From an uncultured candidatus Porisulfidus sp. (GTDB taxonomy: Bacteria > Pseudomonadota > Gammaproteobacteria > Poriferisulfidales > Oxydemutatoraceae): a stretch of DNA of 64,000 nt. Below the pieces are notes generated by a model. The model saw nothing but the letters and a program-made list of their open reading frames with translations, ran no database searches and had not been told where the DNA came from. The DNA lies in assembly GCA_965215125.1 (NCBI GenBank), contig OZ244052.1, positions 544,001 through 608,000 on the forward strand, written 5' to 3'. Positions 6,338 to 60,914 of this stretch are shown here, in pieces. The stretch's first letter is position 1; the number at the start of each line of letters is the position of its first letter. The translations under genes and the position numbers were made by a program.

Positions 6338-7486
6338 ATGACTAGTATACTGTATGTTGGCATTGATGTTGATGATAAGAGTTTCACTGCCACAGCCATT
6401 TCTAAACACAATAATTATCATTCCATTAAAACGCGTCCGGACTTTGCATCACTGCATAAGGCAATCACCAAAGTCGCTTTGCCGTATGAACAGATTAGGG
6501 TCTGTTATGAAGCAAGCTATTTAGGCTTTTCGTTAAAGCGACAATTTGATGCGCTGGGCATTCACTGCGATGTGATTGCGCCGTCGCTGATCCCGGTGCG
6601 TCCCTCGGATCGTATCAAGACCGATCGCCTAGATAGCGTCAAGCTGGCTGAATACTACCGACAAGGTATGTTGAAAATCGTCCACGATATTGATACTGAG
6701 ACCGAAGGTCACCGACAACTCATTCGTGGACACCAACAAGTGGTCAACACCTGCAAGATCTATAAACTGCAGATTTTGTCGTCGTGCCGTTATCGCGGGA
6801 TTAGTTATCGCACCAGTATGCAGGCCAAGAGCTATTGGACGAAGCAGCACATGGCATTCTTAAAGCGGCTCCTAGTCGACGACAGTTTAGATAAGTATTT
6901 CCGCCTCGATTTAGAGAACAAGTTATATCTATTGGAGACGCAACAAGGGGTTATCAGACGCTATGAGAACGATATACATCAGTTAGCGATATCCGAGCCG
7001 TATCGTCGGGCGGTCGGCTATTTATGTTGTATCAGAGGCATTGCCGAGTTGATTGCGATGACGCTGATTGTTGAGATTGGCGACATCGGTCGGTTTGTCA
7101 AGGCGCGTCATCTGGCCGGTTATGCCGGCTTCAGTATCAGTGAGTATAGTTCCGGTGGCAAGAGTCGCAAAGGGGGTATTACCGGGATGGGCAACAAATA
7201 CATCCGCACGGTGTGCGTGGAAGCCTGCCAGTTGGCGGGTAGACGCTATAGCGTGAATAAGGCATTGCGTGCCCGACGCGCCGACCAAGACCTAGTGGCT
7301 ATAGAGATAGGCGACCGTTGCATGAAGCGTTTGTATAAGAAGTATCAGACGATGTATCATGCCAACAAACCGTTCAACAAGATTAAGGTGGCGTGTGCCA
7401 GAGAGCTACTCGGTTTTGTGTGGGAAGCCTTGCGTGCTGCCCAGGCCGCTGAAAACGCATTGCACGCCGCACCGGTGGTTGAGTAA
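6338..7486 (+). CDS. IS110 family DEDD recombinase/transposase
   Basis: VGIDV, CYEAS, KTDRLD (DEDD) and C-terminal YAG...SSGG serine motif; RBS AAGGAGG. Confidence 0.95.
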   Translation: MTSILYVGIDVDDKSFTATAISKHNNYHSIKTRPDFASLHKAITKVALPYEQIRVCYEASYLGFSLKRQFDALGIHCDVIAPSLIPVRPSDRIKTDRLDSVKLAEYYRQGMLKIVHDIDTETEGHRQLIRGHQQVVNTCKIYKLQILSSCRYRGISYRTSMQAKSYWTKQHMAFLKRLLVDDSLDKYFRLDLENKLYLLETQQGVIRRYENDIHQLAISEPYRRAVGYLCCIRGIAELIAMTLIVEIGDIGRFVKARHLAGYAGFSISEYSSGGKSRKGGITGMGNKYIRTVCVEACQLAGRRYSVNKALRARRADQDLVAIEIGDRCMKRLYKKYQTMYHANKPFNKIKVACARELLGFVWEALRAAQAAENALHAAPVVE

Positions 7487-40479: not shown

Positions 40480-41513
40480 GGGGATGTACGATGCCATGAC
40501 ATATTGGACAAATGGGGGCAAAAGGAAGCGAGCTGTTGTGCCGGTGTTTTATAGGCTAGACTTTGGTGCGGTCTCCTGAAGTTATACCGCCCGAGATATT
40601 CAAATAATACATCGTTAAATCGTCCTAAATCGGTCACTAAAATATCCTCATGATGTGCTACAAACTCCTCCTGAATGGTGCGGTTAAATCTCTCGTCTAC
40701 GGCATTCATTTTCGGGCAACGAGGATAAGTATAACAGTGTTTAATGTTGTGTTGTTGTAGATAAGCCTCGAAGTCGCCGGCAAACTCGCTGCCGTTGTCG
40801 GTCAGTACTTGAGAGAGGTTGCCGGGGAATACCGTGTCCACCAATCTTGCGAATGTCGCAGCATTTTTACTGTGGGCACGTCGGCAGGCGACGGCAACGG
40901 CGAAACGGCTGTAGTGGTCAATCGCAGTGAACAGATAATAGCGTGTCCGATCAACGAAATAATGGATGGTATCCATAGCCACGCAGTGTCCGGGAAATTG
41001 CGCTTTGGCATCTTTGCCGAGACGGTTGCGTGGTTGAGAAACCTTACGTTTGTGTGTTTTCTTAGAGGGCGAACAACGCATGTTGTCCGATGCATCGGCA
41101 ATCAACCGAGCAATGGTGCGAGGCTTCGGACACTGCAGTTCCCGTGCATCACACCACGGCTTTAAGAAGTAGTAAATCTTCGGCGCACCCATATTCGGAT
41201 AGCTGTGTCGCAGTCGCCTAATCTCATCACTGATGTGAGTAGACCAATTACGGCGACGACGCTGCCGAGGTGCTTTACTTGCGTCTCGCAAAGCGGATAC
41301 ACCGCCCTCGTCAAAGCACTTTTTCCAGCGGTATAGGGTGGAACGGCTCACCCCGACAAAGTCTTGGGTTGCGTTTAAGCCGTGTTTGTTCCAAAATTCT
41401 AGTGCATTAAGTTTTTGTTTGGCATCTGTTGCCATCATAGCCTCCGTTTTGTTGGAAAAAGAGGCTATTTTATAAAAACCTGTAATGCGGTAGCCGATGT
41501 GCTGGTTTTGCAT
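40452..41513 (-). CDS. IS481-like DDE (rve) transposase
   Basis: HTH VSRSTLYRWK; DT, TDNGSEF, ERFNRT; reads through the element end into host DNA. Confidence 0.9.
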   Translation of the reverse strand: MQNQHIGYRITGFYKIASFSNKTEAMMATDAKQKLNALEFWNKHGLNATQDFVGVSRSTLYRWKKCFDEGGVSALRDASKAPRQRRRRNWSTHISDEIRRLRHSYPNMGAPKIYYFLKPWCDARELQCPKPRTIARLIADASDNMRCSPSKKTHKRKVSQPRNRLGKDAKAQFPGHCVAMDTIHYFVDRTRYYLFTAIDHYSRFAVAVACRRAHSKNAATFARLVDTVFPGNLSQVLTDNGSEFAGDFEAYLQQHNIKHCYTYPRCPKMNAVDERFNRTIQEEFVAHHEDILVTDLGRFNDVLFEYLGRYNFRRPHQSLAYKTPAQQLASFCPHLSNMSWHRTSPCTFFHFLL

Positions 41514-41616
41514 GTCGGCTACTTTGATTTAAGAGGTATTTTTCCACTAGGAAAAGTACTTTTCCTAGTGGAAAGATTAGGTTCTAAAGAGTCCAATATG
41601 TATCTGGCATTGTACA
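40485..41616 (-). mobile_element. IS481-family element
   Basis: TGT...ACA termini with ~25-bp imperfect IR (TGTACGATGCCATGACATATTGGAC / TGTACAATGCCAGATACATATTGGAC); 5-bp direct repeat GGGGA (40480-84, 41617-21). Confidence 0.85.
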
Positions 41617-41780
41617 GGGGAACCTTGATTTTTTGTCAACCTCAAGCGGTAATACCTCGTCCGTCCTGCAGCGTGTCTCCTCCGACTTCCTAGGCACTGC
41701 ATCTGACCTTACCCCCCAAAACTGGGCCATGACAAAGATGAGATTTCCAGTTAAATTAGTAAACAACAGGAGGTTTCAAA

Positions 41781-58371: not shown

Positions 58372-58603
58372 TGTTATTTCTCCTCTGATTTAATGGACTT
58401 GGCTAAGTAAAAACCAATTTTCAAGCTATTCTATACCATAAATAGGCACCTTAAAAATAAAACCGACGAAGCAACCAAAATTTGGGTATGAACTGCATCT
58501 GTAGAGATAGACCCCCCGCTCCACAAACTTCATAATATTAGACCTTAATATCGTTTATGCTATAGTGTAAACATTCTAAAAATATTGATGAAGGAAATAA
58601 ATT

Positions 58604-58837
58604 ATGAAAAAAGAGGAAATGACAATAGACGAAGTTTATAGAGAACTTAAAGACGACATTCAAGGTATGGCGACTAAGCATGACTTGAAGGTTGGCTTGG
58701 ACGAACTCCGTAATGAGTTTAAGGCAGATATGTCAAAGATGCGTACTTGGGTTATTAGCTTGTTTATCGGTGCGGTAGTCATCATGGGAACGCTTGTAGG
58801 AGCGTACGCCAACATGACGATCGCGCTACTCAAATAG
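58604..58837 (+). CDS. Small coiled-coil protein with C-terminal TM (ATK.DL motif, DUF1640/Bdr-like)
   Basis: AAGGA RBS; MATKHDL, heptad pattern, hydrophobic C-terminus. Confidence 0.7.
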   Translation: MKKEEMTIDEVYRELKDDIQGMATKHDLKVGLDELRNEFKADMSKMRTWVISLFIGAVVIMGTLVGAYANMTIALLK

Positions 58838-59059
58838 GATTGCTAAAAAATACTCCATGAAAAATACCTCATAAAATTGTAGAGCAGACATACTGGGCTG
58901 TTGAAAAAGTGCGGACATCGCACAACACCAACCGTCCTGCGCCAACAAATAATGGTTTCCATAAATTGGATGAATAAATGTATAAATCATGCAGATACGA
59001 AACAACCACCCCGTCAGGCTTCGCCTGCCACCCTAAGGGCGGACAGATATATTAAACCC

Positions 59060-59260
59060 TGGCTTATTTGATATAAGATAAACGCTTAGGCAGATGCAGT
59101 GCCTAGGAAGTCGGAGGAGACACGCTGCAGGACGGACGAGGCATTAAAGCCTGATGGTATGAAAAGCACTCCTCCGGCGTTATGACTATAGAGCTCGAAA
59201 GGCAGCTTGGGACTTTAGATCTCGTATTCATCTGTTTGGGCGGCGTAGTCATACTTTCCT
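59060..59260 (+). ncRNA. Putative bridge RNA of IS110-B
   Basis: Two stem-closed internal loops whose strands match the target and donor junctions (see findings); boundaries approximate. Confidence 0.7.
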
Positions 59261-59319
59261 AAACTGTGTTTGATACCTAGTATTTCATTCATTAACCAAC
59301 CCTTATGGAGTAATTTATT

Positions 59320-60294
59320 ATGGAAAACAAACAACCCGTCACGATTGGCGTTGATGTCTCTAAAGACACTTTAGAGGCGGCTCTATTATTCACTGATAAT
59401 AGTTTTGCCGAGCAACAATTTAGTAGTGATGCCCAAGGCATCAAACAGTTGTTAGCTTGGACGAGCAAACACCGCGCACAGCAGTGTCGCATCTGTGTTG
59501 AGGCGACCGGCGGTCTTGAACTAGACCTGTGCATGGCCGGCTATGATGCCGGGCATCCAATCATCGTGGCAGCACCGGTGCTGATCGCTAGATTCCGCGA
59601 CTCGCTCGGCATACGCAGTAAAACCGATCGCGTGGATGCGCGTATCATCGCACGCTTCGTATTTGCTATCCCGCCTGAAAACAATTGGCAAAAGCCCTCA
59701 CCGGCTGTGCAAGCTTTGCGCGACGCACTGAAATGGCGCAGGGAATTAGTCAAGTGTTGTACGATGTTAAGCAATTGCGCTAATACCCTGCGCGATGCGA
59801 AGCAAAAAAAGGTGGCAGCCACTAGCCTGAAGAACCATGAGAAGCAGATCGATAAGATTAATGCCTCAATGGACAAAATCATCGCTCAAGACGAGCACCT
59901 CACACAGCTTCACCAGTTGCTGTGTTCCATTCCTGGAATCGGAACTCAAACTGCGGCTGCCCTGTGTGCAGTACTGGATGATAATACGTTTCGCCATCCA
60001 AAGCAACTCGCCGCCTATATCGGCATCACGCCCAAGCACAAGCAATCCGGCAACTGCGCATCGCCCACGCCCATCTCTAAACAGGGCAATGCCGACCTGC
60101 GCACCCTCCTATTTATGGCAGCACTCTCGGCACGTCGGCATAACCTAACCATCCGTGCATTTGCCGACCAATTAAGTCGGCGGCGTCCGGAGTTAACTAA
60201 AAAGCAGATTATTGTTGCTTGCGCTCATAAGCTCACGCGTATTATTTATGGGGTCACCACGCACAAGCAACCGTTTGACACGAATTATTGTTGA
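59320..60294 (+). CDS. IS110 family DEDD recombinase/transposase
   Basis: IGVDVSK, CVEATG, KTDRVDA, IPGIG, KQSG. Confidence 0.95.
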   Translation: MENKQPVTIGVDVSKDTLEAALLFTDNSFAEQQFSSDAQGIKQLLAWTSKHRAQQCRICVEATGGLELDLCMAGYDAGHPIIVAAPVLIARFRDSLGIRSKTDRVDARIIARFVFAIPPENNWQKPSPAVQALRDALKWRRELVKCCTMLSNCANTLRDAKQKKVAATSLKNHEKQIDKINASMDKIIAQDEHLTQLHQLLCSIPGIGTQTAAALCAVLDDNTFRHPKQLAAYIGITPKHKQSGNCASPTPISKQGNADLRTLLFMAALSARRHNLTIRAFADQLSRRRPELTKKQIIVACAHKLTRIIYGVTTHKQPFDTNYC

Positions 60295-60404
60295 GCATTT
60301 GCGTCCTAAATCGATACTCACAAAAGGAGATAAAAAATGAATAAAACGGCTTGATTTTTAATAAGGCATCATGCAAGTCCGCCCCTACAAGGAGGGGAAT
60401 GGGG

Positions 60405-60914
60405 TCAGAGTTCGGCCAGTAATCGCAAGATACCTTGCATGGCTTCGGCTACGGTTGCGCGCCGAATGTGGTCGCGCGTGCCGGCAAAGTTACAGAGCTG
60501 AATGTGCTGCGTATGGTTGCGCAGTTGCCAGCCGATCCATACCGTGCCGACGGGTTTATCGCGAGTGCCACCGTCGGGTCCGGCGATACCGCTCACCGCC
60601 ACTGCAACATTCGCATCGGCTACTTTCAACAGCGTTTTCTCGAGCATCTGCGATACGACTTCGCGGCTCACCGCACCGTATTCTCGGAGTAGCGATTGAT
60701 CGATGCCGAGTGTGGTTGCTTTCGCCTCAAGACTATAGGTCACTAAGGCGGCACTGAACCATGCAGAGCTTCCGGGTAGGTCGGTACAGGCTTTGGCAAT
60801 CCATCCGCCGGTGCAGGACTCTGCCGTTGCCAGCTTGATATTATGCCTACACAATACGGTTGCGAGCTTTTCGCACATTGTATAGATTGATTTATCGCTT
60901 AAAATATCGGTCAT
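60405..60914 (-). CDS. pncC: CinA C-terminal domain protein / NMN amidohydrolase PncC
   Basis: AESCTGG, GAVS, SGIAGP.GG..KPVGTV; start at MTDIL preferred. Confidence 0.88.

What the first reader, a model, noticed from the sequence alone, without database searches (positions are those of the whole stretch)
59044..60371. IS110-B: complete bridge-RNA logic readable from sequence
Seen: target AGGGCGGA-CA-TGCAA; donor (circle junction) TAAGGCAT-CA-GATAT. Circularisation creates TTGATT-17 bp-TATATT (60351-56 + 59048-53) firing into the left end. Target loop: stem GTCGGAGGAG (59110-19) / CTCCTCCGGC (59169-78) encloses AGGACGGAC (59129-37, 8/9 to the target left arm), hairpin AGGC-ATTAAA-GCCT, and GTATG (59157-61, pairs with CATGC using one G-U). 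Donor loop: stem TATGACTAT (59181-89) / GTAGTCATA (59245-53) encloses AAGGCAGC (59199-206, 7/8 to the donor left arm) and ATCTG (59230-34, complement of CAGAT). Established: this order matches the IS621 bridge RNA. Inference: a compact 324-aa RNA-guided recombinase with a CA core rather than the CT core of IS621, a candidate programmable tool.
Basis: partly seen in the sequence, partly recalled or inferred. Interest (0 to 1): 0.85.

Follow-up and report, generated by a model that had tools for sequence, protein, structure and literature searches.

The report
IS110 bridge-RNA element with CA core
This is an intact jumping gene of the IS110 family whose own small RNA guides it into a repeated hairpin sequence; the mechanism has been known since 2024, and the uncommon feature here is a CA rather than CT crossover site.

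Summary
Window 59044-60371 is a 1,328-bp IS110-group insertion sequence. It encodes a 324-aa DEDD/Ser recombinase with all five IS621 catalytic residues aligned. It sits at a CA dinucleotide in a REP-like hairpin.

Eight copies in this genome and 25 in three related MAG records share the same ends. The left end encodes a 5' stem-loop, a target-binding loop and a donor-binding loop.

- **Fold:** a covariance model found the fold upstream of distant IS110 recombinase genes, in 25 of 40 genome loci and 55 of 80 metagenome loci. In the alignment of the six clade members plus those 25 genome-locus hits, 41 of 44 pairs show compensatory changes.
- **Guide tracking:** natural guide variants track their DNA. 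The right target guide pairs fully with its own site in 30 of 33 copies, across four guide types. The right donor guide tracks an A/G difference in 33 of 33.
- **Weaker left guides:** both left guides carry conserved mismatches, and the left target guide tracks its target only partly.
- **Core:** the CA core is real and uncommon. Distant relatives nearly all carry CT-type guides, but one more CA-core element turned up (L115).

Verdict: a well-read new member of the known bridge-RNA kind. RNA expression, circle formation and reprogramming are untested.

The parts
59044..60371 (+). Whole insertion sequence, 1,328 bp, written with CA at both ends (one of the two CAs belongs to the target).
   Evidence: A 100% identical full copy lies elsewhere in the genome. 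There are also two identical copies interrupted by another IS, and four copies at 80-82%. All have the same junctions.
59037..59045 (+). Left half of the target: REP-like hairpin arm GGGCGGAC, overlapping the CA core (59044-45).
   Evidence: Direct reading. The uninterrupted 27-nt site occurs exactly twice in the genome, and 41 times with up to 4 substitutions.
60370..60384 (+). Right half of the target: CA core, loop TGCAA, and hairpin arm GTCCGCCC (60377-84).
59048..59053 (+). TATATT, a -10-like hexamer in the left end.
   Evidence: Direct reading. It is conserved in all 14 distinct left ends. One search also lists it paired with the flank hexamer CTGCCA.
60351..60356 (+). TTGATT, a -35-like hexamer in the right end, 17 bp from TATATT once the ends are joined.
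   Evidence: Direct reading. The same place holds TTGATT or TTGACT in all relatives printed. Function is inferred from IS621.
59085..59107 (+). 5' stem-loop of the RNA.
   Evidence: Alignment fold, with one compensatory pair within the clade. Helix 1 has 8 of 8 pairs with changes on both sides across distant relatives.
59110..59178 (+). Target-binding loop module. Outer stem 59110-19/59169-78; second stem 59124-26/59165-67; inner hairpin 59139-52.
   Evidence: helices 2-4: 17 of 17 pairs with compensatory change.
59129..59138 (+). Left target guide AGGACGGAC plus G. It has the same sense as the top strand of the left target plus core.
   Evidence: It is the only place in the left end with 8 of 9 to the left target. 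It varies with the target in relatives at position 4 in all three guide types, and at position 7 in two of three.
59155..59163 (+). Right target guide UGGUAUG (59155-61), complementary to core plus right target, followed by handshake bases AA (59162-63).
   Evidence: four guide types, each matching its own sites; 30 of 33 copies pair at all 7 positions (counted by hand from the table).
59181..59253 (+). Donor-binding loop module. Outer stem 59181-89/59245-53; second stem 59193-97/59237-41; inner hairpin 59208-12/59220-24.
   Evidence: helices 5-7: 16 of 19 pairs with compensatory change.
59199..59206 (+). Left donor guide AAGGCAGC, 7 of 8 to the right-end terminus AAGGCATC.
   Evidence: The donor end never varies, so covariation cannot be tested. 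Three copies (own_C2-C4) have the perfect AAGGCATC.
59230..59236 (+). Right donor guide AUCUG, complementary to CAGAT at the left terminus, followed by handshake bases UU (59235-36).
   Evidence: AUCUG occurs with CAGAT and ACCUG with CAGGT in 33 of 33 copies.
59320..60294 (+). Recombinase gene, 324 aa, with a RuvC-like DEDD domain and a Tnp domain carrying the catalytic serine.
   Evidence: D12, E61, D103, D106 and S243 align with IS621 D11, E60, D102, D105 and S241.
60295..60371 (+). Short right end (77 bp), compared with a 276-bp left end.
   Evidence: A long left end and short right end is the IS110-group pattern.

Best explanation
Window 59044-60371 is an intact and probably recently mobile IS110-group insertion sequence that uses a bridge RNA.

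By analogy with IS621, the proposed cycle is as follows:
1. The element excises as a circle.
2. Joining right end to left end places TTGATT 17 bp upstream of TATATT.
3. Transcription from about 59060 then yields an RNA of roughly 195 nt.
4. The RNA's first internal loop reads the REP-like target GGGCGGA-CA-TGCAA. [quoted passage not shown]
5. The second loop reads the element's own joined ends, AAGGCAT-CA-GATAT, in the same way.
6. A tetramer of the 324-aa DEDD/Ser recombinase exchanges strands at the CA core.
7. The two bases after each 3' guide (AA and UU) can pair with position 7 of the other DNA after exchange. These are the handshake bases.

Shown here: the element's ends, the family of the protein with its catalytic residues, the RNA fold supported by covariation, and the tracking of guides with their DNA. 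Inferred: circle formation, the promoter, RNA production and catalysis.
For: **Ends and mobility**
- Two full copies are 100% identical at different REP sites.
- Two further copies carry the same nested IS.
- Four copies are 80-82% identical, and all have the same junctions.
- All 25 related copies in three MAG records have the same right end and a CA at both junctions.
- Unoccupied target hairpins are present in the genome: 2 exact, and 41 within 4 substitutions.

**Protein**
- Pfam PF01548 (E 1.4e-20) and PF02371 (E 1.3e-24).
- IS621 transposase 8wt6, E 2.1e-43, and ISCro4 9t56, E 1.2e-44, with DEDD+S aligned.

**RNA**
- Within the clade the RNA segment is 87-99% identical. By contrast the coding DNA is 67-78% identical in the six diverged copies with a readable ORF (own_C1, own_C3, L024, L027, L028, L031), and the rest of the left end is 57-71% identical in the six comparisons where it has diverged (own_C2, own_C3, L024, L027, L028, L031).
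- Differences within the RNA segment are concentrated in the four guide segments.
- A covariance model hit 6 of 6 clade members and 25 of 40 distant genome loci. All hits were on the coding strand, directly upstream of the gene. It also hit 55 of 80 metagenome loci.
- On the 31-row alignment, 92.1% of cells are paired against 62.5% in shuffles (0 of 500 reach it) and 34-47% when partners are slid. Compensatory changes occur in 41 of 44 pairs.
- Eight full RNA modules exist in the genome, one in each copy.

**Guides** (counted by hand)
- Right target guide types UGGUAUG, UUGCAUG, UAGCAUG and UAACAUG sit with sites CATGCCA/CATATCA, CATGCAA, CATGCTA and CATGTTA. All 7 positions pair in 30 of 33 copies.
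- The right donor guide tracks position 4 of the element in 33 of 33 copies.
- Handshake base A can pair with donor T7 in 33 of 33 copies and never with its own target's position 7.

**Core**
- The core-reading dinucleotide of the right guides is UG in 6 of 6 clade members. It is AG in 24 of 25 distant genome relatives and in 49-50 of 56 metagenome rows.

**Literature**
- The strand rule, guide lengths and loop order match those stated for IS621.
- This includes an 8-nt left donor guide that stops at the first core base.
Against: - **Fold energy:** the single-sequence fold is not better than shuffles (z -0.95 and -1.30).
- **Single guides:** each guide match is frequent by chance on its own.
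- **Left target guide:** it has a conserved A opposite target G in all 15 copies of this genome and the closest MAG. In the Porisulfidus copies it pairs at only 5 positions plus 1 wobble of 8, and would pair equally with the other lineage's target.
- **Left donor guide:** it has G opposite donor T7 in 30 of 33 copies.
- **Second core base:** the left target guide is G, A or U there, and the base after the left donor guide is U. The left guides therefore do not consistently read A.
- **Window copy:** its own right site (CATGCAA) leaves one mismatch, at position 6.
- **Promoter:** the junction promoter scores 9 of 12, the same as CTGCCA-17-TATATT already present at the integrated locus. Promoter-like sites in the region are not above shuffles (3 against 2.4).
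- **Rfam:** no family matched.
- **Alignment bias:** the alignment used for pair counts was fitted to the model, which favours the structure.
Confidence: 0.9

Rival explanations
1. Target choice rests mainly on the right target guide plus recognition of the REP hairpin as a structure. The left target guide would then be a weak or partly vestigial contributor. This resembles the 'sequence-structure dual-match' reported for ISPpu10.
For: - The target is a hairpin: GGGCGGAC, a 6-nt loop, then GTCCGCCC.
- The right guide pairs at 7 of 7 positions in 30 of 33 copies. The left guide carries conserved mismatches, and in 17 Porisulfidus copies it pairs at only 5 positions plus 1 wobble of 8.
- The ISPpu10 preprint abstract reports a target stem-loop as a second specificity determinant (abstract and outline only).
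Against: - The left guide segment still changes with the target at position 4 in all three guide types, and at position 7 in two of three.
- It is the only 8-of-9 match to the left target in the left end.
Confidence: 0.25
2. The element is of the bridge-RNA kind, but the window copy is an inactive relic and will not move again.
For: - Its right guide leaves a mismatch with its own site.
- The genome holds many decayed relatives: a copy with a broken reading frame (own_C2, 72-aa ORF) and left-end fragments.
Against: - The reading frame is intact with all catalytic residues.
- A second copy is 100% identical over 1,328 bp at another site.
- A composite derivative differs by 2 of 2,474 bases between two sites, which points to recent movement.
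- The guide UGGUAUG pairs fully with the sites of four other copies and with unoccupied CATAC-type hairpins.
Confidence: 0.15
3. The left end is only a promoter and leader region. The protein alone selects the REP site, and the guide-like matches are coincidence.
For: Single matches of this size are common by chance, and the fold energy is unremarkable.
Against: - Guide segments change together with target and donor across lineages.
- The fold is conserved with compensatory changes in relatives of about 30% protein identity.
- The RNA segment is far more conserved than the coding DNA in the diverged copies.
- The homologous IS621 system is experimentally RNA-guided.
Confidence: 0.03

Closest known systems
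IS621 of E. coli (bridge RNA; Durrant et al. 2024, Hiraizumi et al. 2024)
   Same: - The same two Pfam domains and the same DEDD+S residues; the protein aligns over residues 8-321.
- Long left end and short right end.
- RNA order: 5' stem-loop, target loop, donor loop.
- The 5' guides have top-strand sense (8-9 nt) and the 3' guides are complementary.
- An 8-nt left donor guide ending at the first core base.
- Handshake bases; a REP target; a promoter split across the joined ends.
- An ATA...TAT pair flanks the donor, as described for the IS110 group.
   Different: - The aligned stretches are clearly diverged (E about 1e-43; one search prints no identity figure).
- The core is CA instead of CT. 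The IS621 papers call T at the second core position 'almost invariant' among IS621 and related orthologues.
- The natural right target guide is 7 nt here, against 4 nt in IS621.
- The donor sequence differs (AAGGCAT-CA-GATAT).
- The IS621 RNA sequence itself was not compared here.
ISCro4 / IS622 of Citrobacter rodentium
   Same: Best match among solved structures (9t56, E 1.2e-44). It is a bridge recombinase with the same loop and handshake scheme.
   Different: CT core. It is 88% identical to IS621, so it is about as distant from this protein as IS621 is. It has been tested in human cells, whereas this element is untested.
ISPpu10 of Pseudomonas putida
   Same: An IS110 element with a bridge RNA whose target carries a GC-rich stem-loop (abstract).
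   Different: Its sequence was not compared here. Its stem-loop requirement is experimental; here it is only a possibility.
ISPpu9 of P. putida and the IS1111 group (seekRNA)
   Same: Same transposase family, REP targets, circles joined at a shared dinucleotide.
   Different: - ISPpu9's junction dinucleotide is AG, and a small-RNA gene lies downstream of its transposase gene.
- In the IS1111 group the guide RNA is predicted in the right end.
- Here the RNA is upstream, in the left end.
L115, an unnamed metagenome IS110 element (33% protein identity)
   Same: A second CA-core case. Both right guides end in AUG, and the sequences they predict are found at the two ends, sharing only CA.
   Different: It is a single copy on a 1.6-kb contig, so its ends were inferred from its own guides. 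Its left guides include the full CA, unlike most copies of the window's clade.

Membership tests
IS110 family (IS110 group) insertion sequence | N-terminal DEDD RuvC-like domain (PF01548) and C-terminal PF02371 domain | tested here: met
   both domains are above the curated cut-offs (74.1 and 86.8 bits).
IS110 family (IS110 group) insertion sequence | Catalytic D, E, D, D and serine | tested here: met
   alignment to 8wt6. D12, E61, D103, D106 and S243 correspond to IS621 D11, E60, D102, D105 and S241 (residue list; the chain numbering is offset by 2).
IS110 family (IS110 group) insertion sequence | No long terminal inverted repeats; only a short core is repeated at the junctions | tested here: met
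   The termini CAGATATATT... and ...AAGGCATCA share only CA. No flank duplication beyond CA was seen in 8 of 8 copies.
IS110 family (IS110 group) insertion sequence | Left end longer than right end, with the RNA in the left end (the IS1111 group is the reverse) | tested here: met
   The left end is 276 bp and the right end 77 bp. The RNA model hits 59080-59254 only. The rule is stated.
Bridge RNA (IS621 type) | 5' stem-loop followed by two stem-enclosed internal loops, supported by covariation | tested here: met
   41 of 44 pairs show compensatory change, and 92.1% of cells are paired against 62.5% in shuffles. The alignment was fitted to the model.
Bridge RNA (IS621 type) | [quoted passage not shown] | tested here: met
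   The left guide matches 8 of 9. The right guide pairs at 6 of 7 positions in the window copy (one of the six a G-U wobble), and at 7 of 7 in 30 of 33 copies.
Bridge RNA (IS621 type) | Second loop complementary to the joined ends in the same manner | tested here: met
   The left donor guide matches 7 of 8. The right donor guide matches 5 of 5 and covaries in 33 of 33 copies.
Bridge RNA (IS621 type) | Guides covary with target and donor across relatives | tested here: met
   Covariation is clear for both right guides, partial for the left target guide, and untestable for the left donor guide because the donor end is invariant.
Bridge RNA (IS621 type) | Handshake bases that mismatch their own DNA at position 7 and pair with the other DNA | tested here: met
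   against the rule. A pairs with donor T7 in 33 of 33 copies. For the first base after the right donor guide, U pairs with target A7 or wobbles with G7 in 32 of 33 copies; L027 has G against G.
Bridge RNA (IS621 type) | CT core dinucleotide | tested here: not met
   The core is CA. Right guides read UG, not AG. This separates the element from IS621-like orthologues, but not from the family, whose cores vary (AG in ISPpu9; CA in L115).
Bridge RNA (IS621 type) | Sigma-70 promoter rebuilt across the joined ends, driving the RNA | tested here: inconclusive
   TTGATT-17-TATATT is present and conserved in place. It is no stronger than a flank-derived match. No expression data were available.
Bridge RNA (IS621 type) | Circular intermediate, RNA bound by the recombinase, RNA-dependent recombination | not testable with these tools
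   This needs bench work. The public runs available were contigs only.

The most novel reading that the evidence does not exclude
This clade of bridge recombinases has moved its crossover site from CT to CA, changing the core base that the IS621 papers call almost invariant among IS621 and related orthologues. The change was made through the two right guides (AG to UG). The base after the left donor guide kept the ancestral C-U, and the left target guide is free at that position (G, A or U). If so, reading of the second core base on the bottom strand is dispensable in nature. These compact 324-334-aa enzymes would open CA-core sites to bridge editing. The same clade also seems to move a 2.5-kb composite, with a broken recombinase gene, in trans.
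Probability: 0.45. Interest if true: 0.5.

Novelty: new member of a known kind. Interest (0 to 1): 0.35.

Why it matters
Bridge recombinases are under active development as genome-writing tools, and most work rests on IS621 and IS622, which prefer CT (or GT) cores. A natural lineage that recombines at CA has several useful features:
- a 7-nt right target guide;
- an RNA scaffold that is almost unchanged across recombinases only 58-70% identical;
- natural variation in three of the four guide segments, set against known insertion sites.

It is therefore a ready-made test set for the rules of core choice and for scaffold/enzyme cross-compatibility.

For genome biology, it shows an uncultured lineage in which REP-like hairpins are being colonised by several co-resident, recombining bridge-RNA elements. 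The mechanism itself is already published, so the result is confirmatory rather than surprising.

Tried and rejected
- **Rfam:** a scan of 58500-60900 at E up to 1 gave no match. It neither helps nor hurts.
- **Expression and circles:** The look-up of sequencing runs listed no RNA holder, and all runs are kept as contigs.
  - Laying four runs showed no joint from right end back to left end.
  - It did show 'skip' joints 59043>60370 and 59045>60376, with only 19-25 letters on the shorter side. These are best read as paralogous empty REP hairpins, not as excision at this locus.
  - I draw nothing from this about expression, circles or habitat.
- **Orthologous empty site:** the right flank was found in four same-genus genomes. 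The intergenic region there is rearranged and holds other repeats, so no clean empty site was obtained. Paralogous empty hairpins were used instead.
- **Metagenome relatives:** the scan gave no relative above 39% identity, so it added nothing to the test of the left target guide. It was used only for the fold and for the core survey.
- **Literature on the core:**
  - A search for 'IS110' + 'bridge RNA' + 'CA core' found 0 papers.
  - A search for 'bridge RNA' + 'core dinucleotide' + 'orthologs' found 3.
  - I cannot say that CA cores are undescribed. The Methods of Durrant et al. select 'CT core guides' from a larger set, which implies that others exist.
- **Considered and dropped:**
  - A core shifted by one base (A/T-C) would need mismatched cores and does not fit the register of the right guides.
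  - AGGCAT in the inner hairpin of the target loop (59139-44) as the real left donor guide: L027 changes it while keeping the same donor end.
- **Closed or unused tools:** No structure or complex prediction was run, because the sequence match to solved IS621 was sufficient.
- **Papers, and what I saw of each:**
  - PMC11208160: passages.
  - PMC11208158: passages and section 8.
  - bioRxiv 2025.05.14.653916: passages.
  - Preprints 2026.03.19.712850 and 2026.08.31.748434: abstract and outline only.
  - PMC12288879 and PMC13626964: passages.
- **From recall only:** the name 'IS481-like' for the nested IS.
Full report
**What is in the sequence**

The element runs from 59044 to 60371. It has a 276-bp left end, a 324-aa open reading frame (59320-60294) and a 77-bp right end. 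The flanks read ...AGGGCGGA|CA... and ...CA|TGCAAGTCCGCCCC. Without the element, the site is therefore a hairpin: GGGCGGAC, a six-base loop, then GTCCGCCC.

**Are the ends real?**

The window's genome is one 2.22-Mb contig. It holds the following:
- a second full copy, 100% identical;
- two further identical copies, each split by the same 1,140-bp insert;
- four full copies at 80-82%;
- one partial copy at 76%;
- nine short left-end fragments.

All eight full or split copies have the same termini and lie in the same kind of hairpin, while their wider flanks differ. The rebuilt 27-nt target occurs unbroken twice exactly, and 41 times within four substitutions. Insertion is always in one orientation of the palindrome.

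A search of one genome per species found 25 further copies with 59-97% protein identity (best tblastn segment). They lie in three MAG records titled Candidatus Oxydemutatoraceae and candidatus Porisulfidus. All have a CA at both junctions and the same right terminus.

No clean empty site was found at the orthologous locus of four same-genus genomes, because the region is rearranged there.

**The protein**

Pfam gives DEDD_Tnp_IS110 and Transposase_20. Against solved structures, the best matches are the ISCro4 transposase (E 1.2e-44) and the IS621 transposase (E 2.1e-43), both over residues 8-321.

D12, E61, D103, D106 and S243 align with the IS621 catalytic residues listed. The EATG motif and the hydrophobic 'wedge' positions (F265, M266, L269) are also kept.

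**The RNA fold**

- **Within the clade.** The stems never vary, so they say nothing by themselves. The RNA segment is nonetheless 87-99% identical. By contrast the coding DNA is only 67-78% identical in the six diverged copies with a readable ORF (own_C1, own_C3, L024, L027, L028, L031). The remaining left end is 57-71% identical in the six comparisons where it has diverged (own_C2, own_C3, L024, L027, L028, L031).
- **Distant relatives, model building.** I built a covariance model from ten sequences and widened it once with four distant hits.
- **Distant relatives, model hits.** The second model matched 31 of 46 sources at E up to 0.01. That is all 6 clade members and 25 of 40 distant loci with about 30-37% protein identity. 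Every hit was on the coding strand, immediately upstream of the gene. It also matched 55 of 80 metagenome loci.
- **Pair counts.** On the 31-row alignment, 92.1% of cells form standard pairs. Shuffles give 62.5% (0 of 500 reach the observed value), and slid partners give 34-47%. Of 44 pairs, 41 show changes on both sides. The alignment was fitted to the model, which favours the structure, but the margin is large.

The architecture is a 5' stem-loop followed by two modules. Each module runs outer stem, short second stem, 5' guide, capping hairpin, 3' guide. This is the order described for IS621.

**The guides**

Published rule:
One guide match alone means little. The four together, in order and spacing, occurred in 22 of 5000 shuffles and in 21 of 5000 random genome windows.

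The stronger evidence is natural variation (counts made by hand from its table of 33 copies).

| Right target guide | Sites where it sits |
|---|---|
| UGGUAUG | CATGCCA (three copies), CATATCA, CATGCAA |
| UUGCAUG | CATGCAA (four copies), CATGCCA |
| UAGCAUG | CATGCTA (five copies), CATGTTA |
| UAACAUG | CATGTTA (sixteen copies), CATGCTA |

- **Right target guide.** All seven positions pair, counting G-U, in 30 of 33 copies. The window copy is one of the three exceptions, with G against A at position 6. Its guide would pair perfectly with the CATAC-type hairpins that are still unoccupied. With wobble it also covers the CATGC and CATAT types.
- **Right donor guide.** It reads AUCUG where the element starts CAGAT and ACCUG where it starts CAGGT, in 33 of 33 copies.
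- **Left target guide.** It follows the target at position 4 in all three guide types and at position 7 in two of three. It also has a conserved A opposite G in 15 copies. In the Porisulfidus lineage it pairs at only 5 positions plus one wobble of 8, no better than it would with the other lineage's target.
- **Left donor guide.** It cannot be tested, because the right terminus never varies. It has G opposite T7 in 30 of 33 copies, and three copies have the perfect match.
- **Handshake bases.** A in the target loop can pair with donor T7 in 33 of 33 copies and never with its own target. For the donor loop, the first base after the right donor guide fits in 32 of 33 copies; L027 does not.

Natural G-T pairs in IS621's own guides are reported, so imperfect guides are not unusual.

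**The core**

CA is the only dinucleotide shared by the two junctions.

| Sample | Right target guide | Right donor guide |
|---|---|---|
| Window's clade | UG in 6 of 6 | UG in 6 of 6 |
| Distant genome relatives | AG in 24 of 25 | not tallied |
| Metagenome rows | AG in 49 of 56 | AG in 50 of 56 |

- Most exceptions among the metagenome rows are shifts of register or truncated rows.
- One exception, L115, ends both right guides in AUG. The sequences its guides predict are present at its two ends and share only CA. It is a single copy, so this is weaker evidence.
- CA cores are therefore uncommon but not unique to this clade.
- In this clade the base after the left donor guide keeps C-U, as in CT-core relatives. 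The left target guide has G, A or U at the second core position.
- The IS621 papers state that T at that core position is almost invariant in IS621 and related orthologues and is read by a main-chain amide. What replaces that contact here is unknown.

**Promoter**

Joining the ends gives TTGATT, 17 bp, TATATT. Both hexamers keep their places in all relatives (TTGACT in the 80% copies). The integrated locus already offers CTGCCA-17-TATATT with the same score, and promoter-like sites are not enriched in the region. The promoter is therefore plausible by analogy, not shown.

**Activity**

Identical copies at different sites point to recent movement. So does a composite copy that differs by 2 of 2,474 bases between two sites with unrelated wider flanks. 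No RNA run was listed and no circle joint was seen in contigs. As the tool instructs, nothing is concluded from that.

**Comparison and verdict**

The element works like IS621 and meets every family feature I could test except the CT core. It is a new member of the known bridge-RNA kind, from an uncultured lineage. Its notable features are a CA core, a natural 7-nt right target guide and a very conserved scaffold shared by recombinases only 58-70% identical.

Its claim of 'complete logic' should be tempered by the conserved mismatches in the left guides. One open possibility is that the target hairpin itself contributes to recognition, as reported for ISPpu10 (abstract only).

Confidence that this is a genuine bridge-RNA element is 0.9. 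Interest is 0.35.

Noticed in passing
genome G000:C1 297990-300463 (-) and 763826-766299 (+); loci L003/L011 and L004/L010: Two copies of the element carry the same 1,140-bp IS at the same base, with the same 6-bp duplication (ACTCGC). The nested IS encodes an HTH + rve transposase and has 7 identical copies in the genome. It breaks the recombinase gene after about 230 codons. The two composites differ by 2 of 2,474 bases and sit in different REP sites with unrelated wider flanks. The simplest reading is that the whole composite was moved in trans by an intact copy, which would be natural carriage of cargo. Two independent hits at the same base are the alternative.
   Followed up: partly
window 41642-41705 (-), next to window 40485-41615: A fragment of the left end (element positions 48-111, 94% identical) begins exactly at an internal CAGAT, which repeats the terminal CAGAT read by the right donor guide. 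It is preceded by ...TAAGGT-CA, which resembles the right terminus. A 96% copy of the 1,140-bp IS lies beside it. This may be a product of recombination at a pseudo-donor half-site.
   Followed up: partly
genome G000:C1 521885-521933 (+) and 2109565-2109617 (-): These are left-end remnants of about 45-58 bp that run directly into the right half of the REP hairpin. Nearly the whole element appears to have been deleted up to its right junction.
   Followed up: no
genome G000:C1 1998246-1999580 (own_C1); L022: Mosaic elements. own_C1 has a left end 99-100% identical to the window copy but coding DNA only 78% identical. L022 has the coding DNA of the window type (97%) with the guide set of the 66% sister type. 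Co-resident elements seem to exchange their RNA modules.
   Followed up: partly
L029 (record OZ241323.1), locus positions about 1151-1228: The first 77 bp of a left end, ending in the outer stem GTCGGAGGAGA, is followed by CA and then a complete copy, with a normal right REP half at the far end. It looks like an insertion into another copy's RNA gene at a target-like GGAGGAGA-CA site, followed by loss of the duplicated part.
   Followed up: no
window 6338-7486 (+): A second, different IS110-family gene (382 aa; PF01548 + PF02371). It has at most about 130 bp between it and the upstream gene and no match to the RNA model. Three related copies exist in the genome. Its RNA, if any, may lie downstream, as in the IS1111 group.
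   Followed up: no
genome G000:C1 about 1334400-1334700 (L018): A diverged target-loop-like module stands alone, with no donor loop and no recombinase gene. Its outer stem carries one compensatory change (A-U to U-A) and its inner loop is longer.
   Followed up: no
window 59085-59107 compared with 59036-45 plus 60370-84: [quoted passage not shown] This is by eye only and may be chance.
   Followed up: no
genome G000:C1 1121645-1122978 (own_C2): This 80% copy has a broken reading frame (longest ORF from the usual start is 72 aa). It keeps a full RNA module, with the best-matching left guides of the whole set.
   Followed up: no
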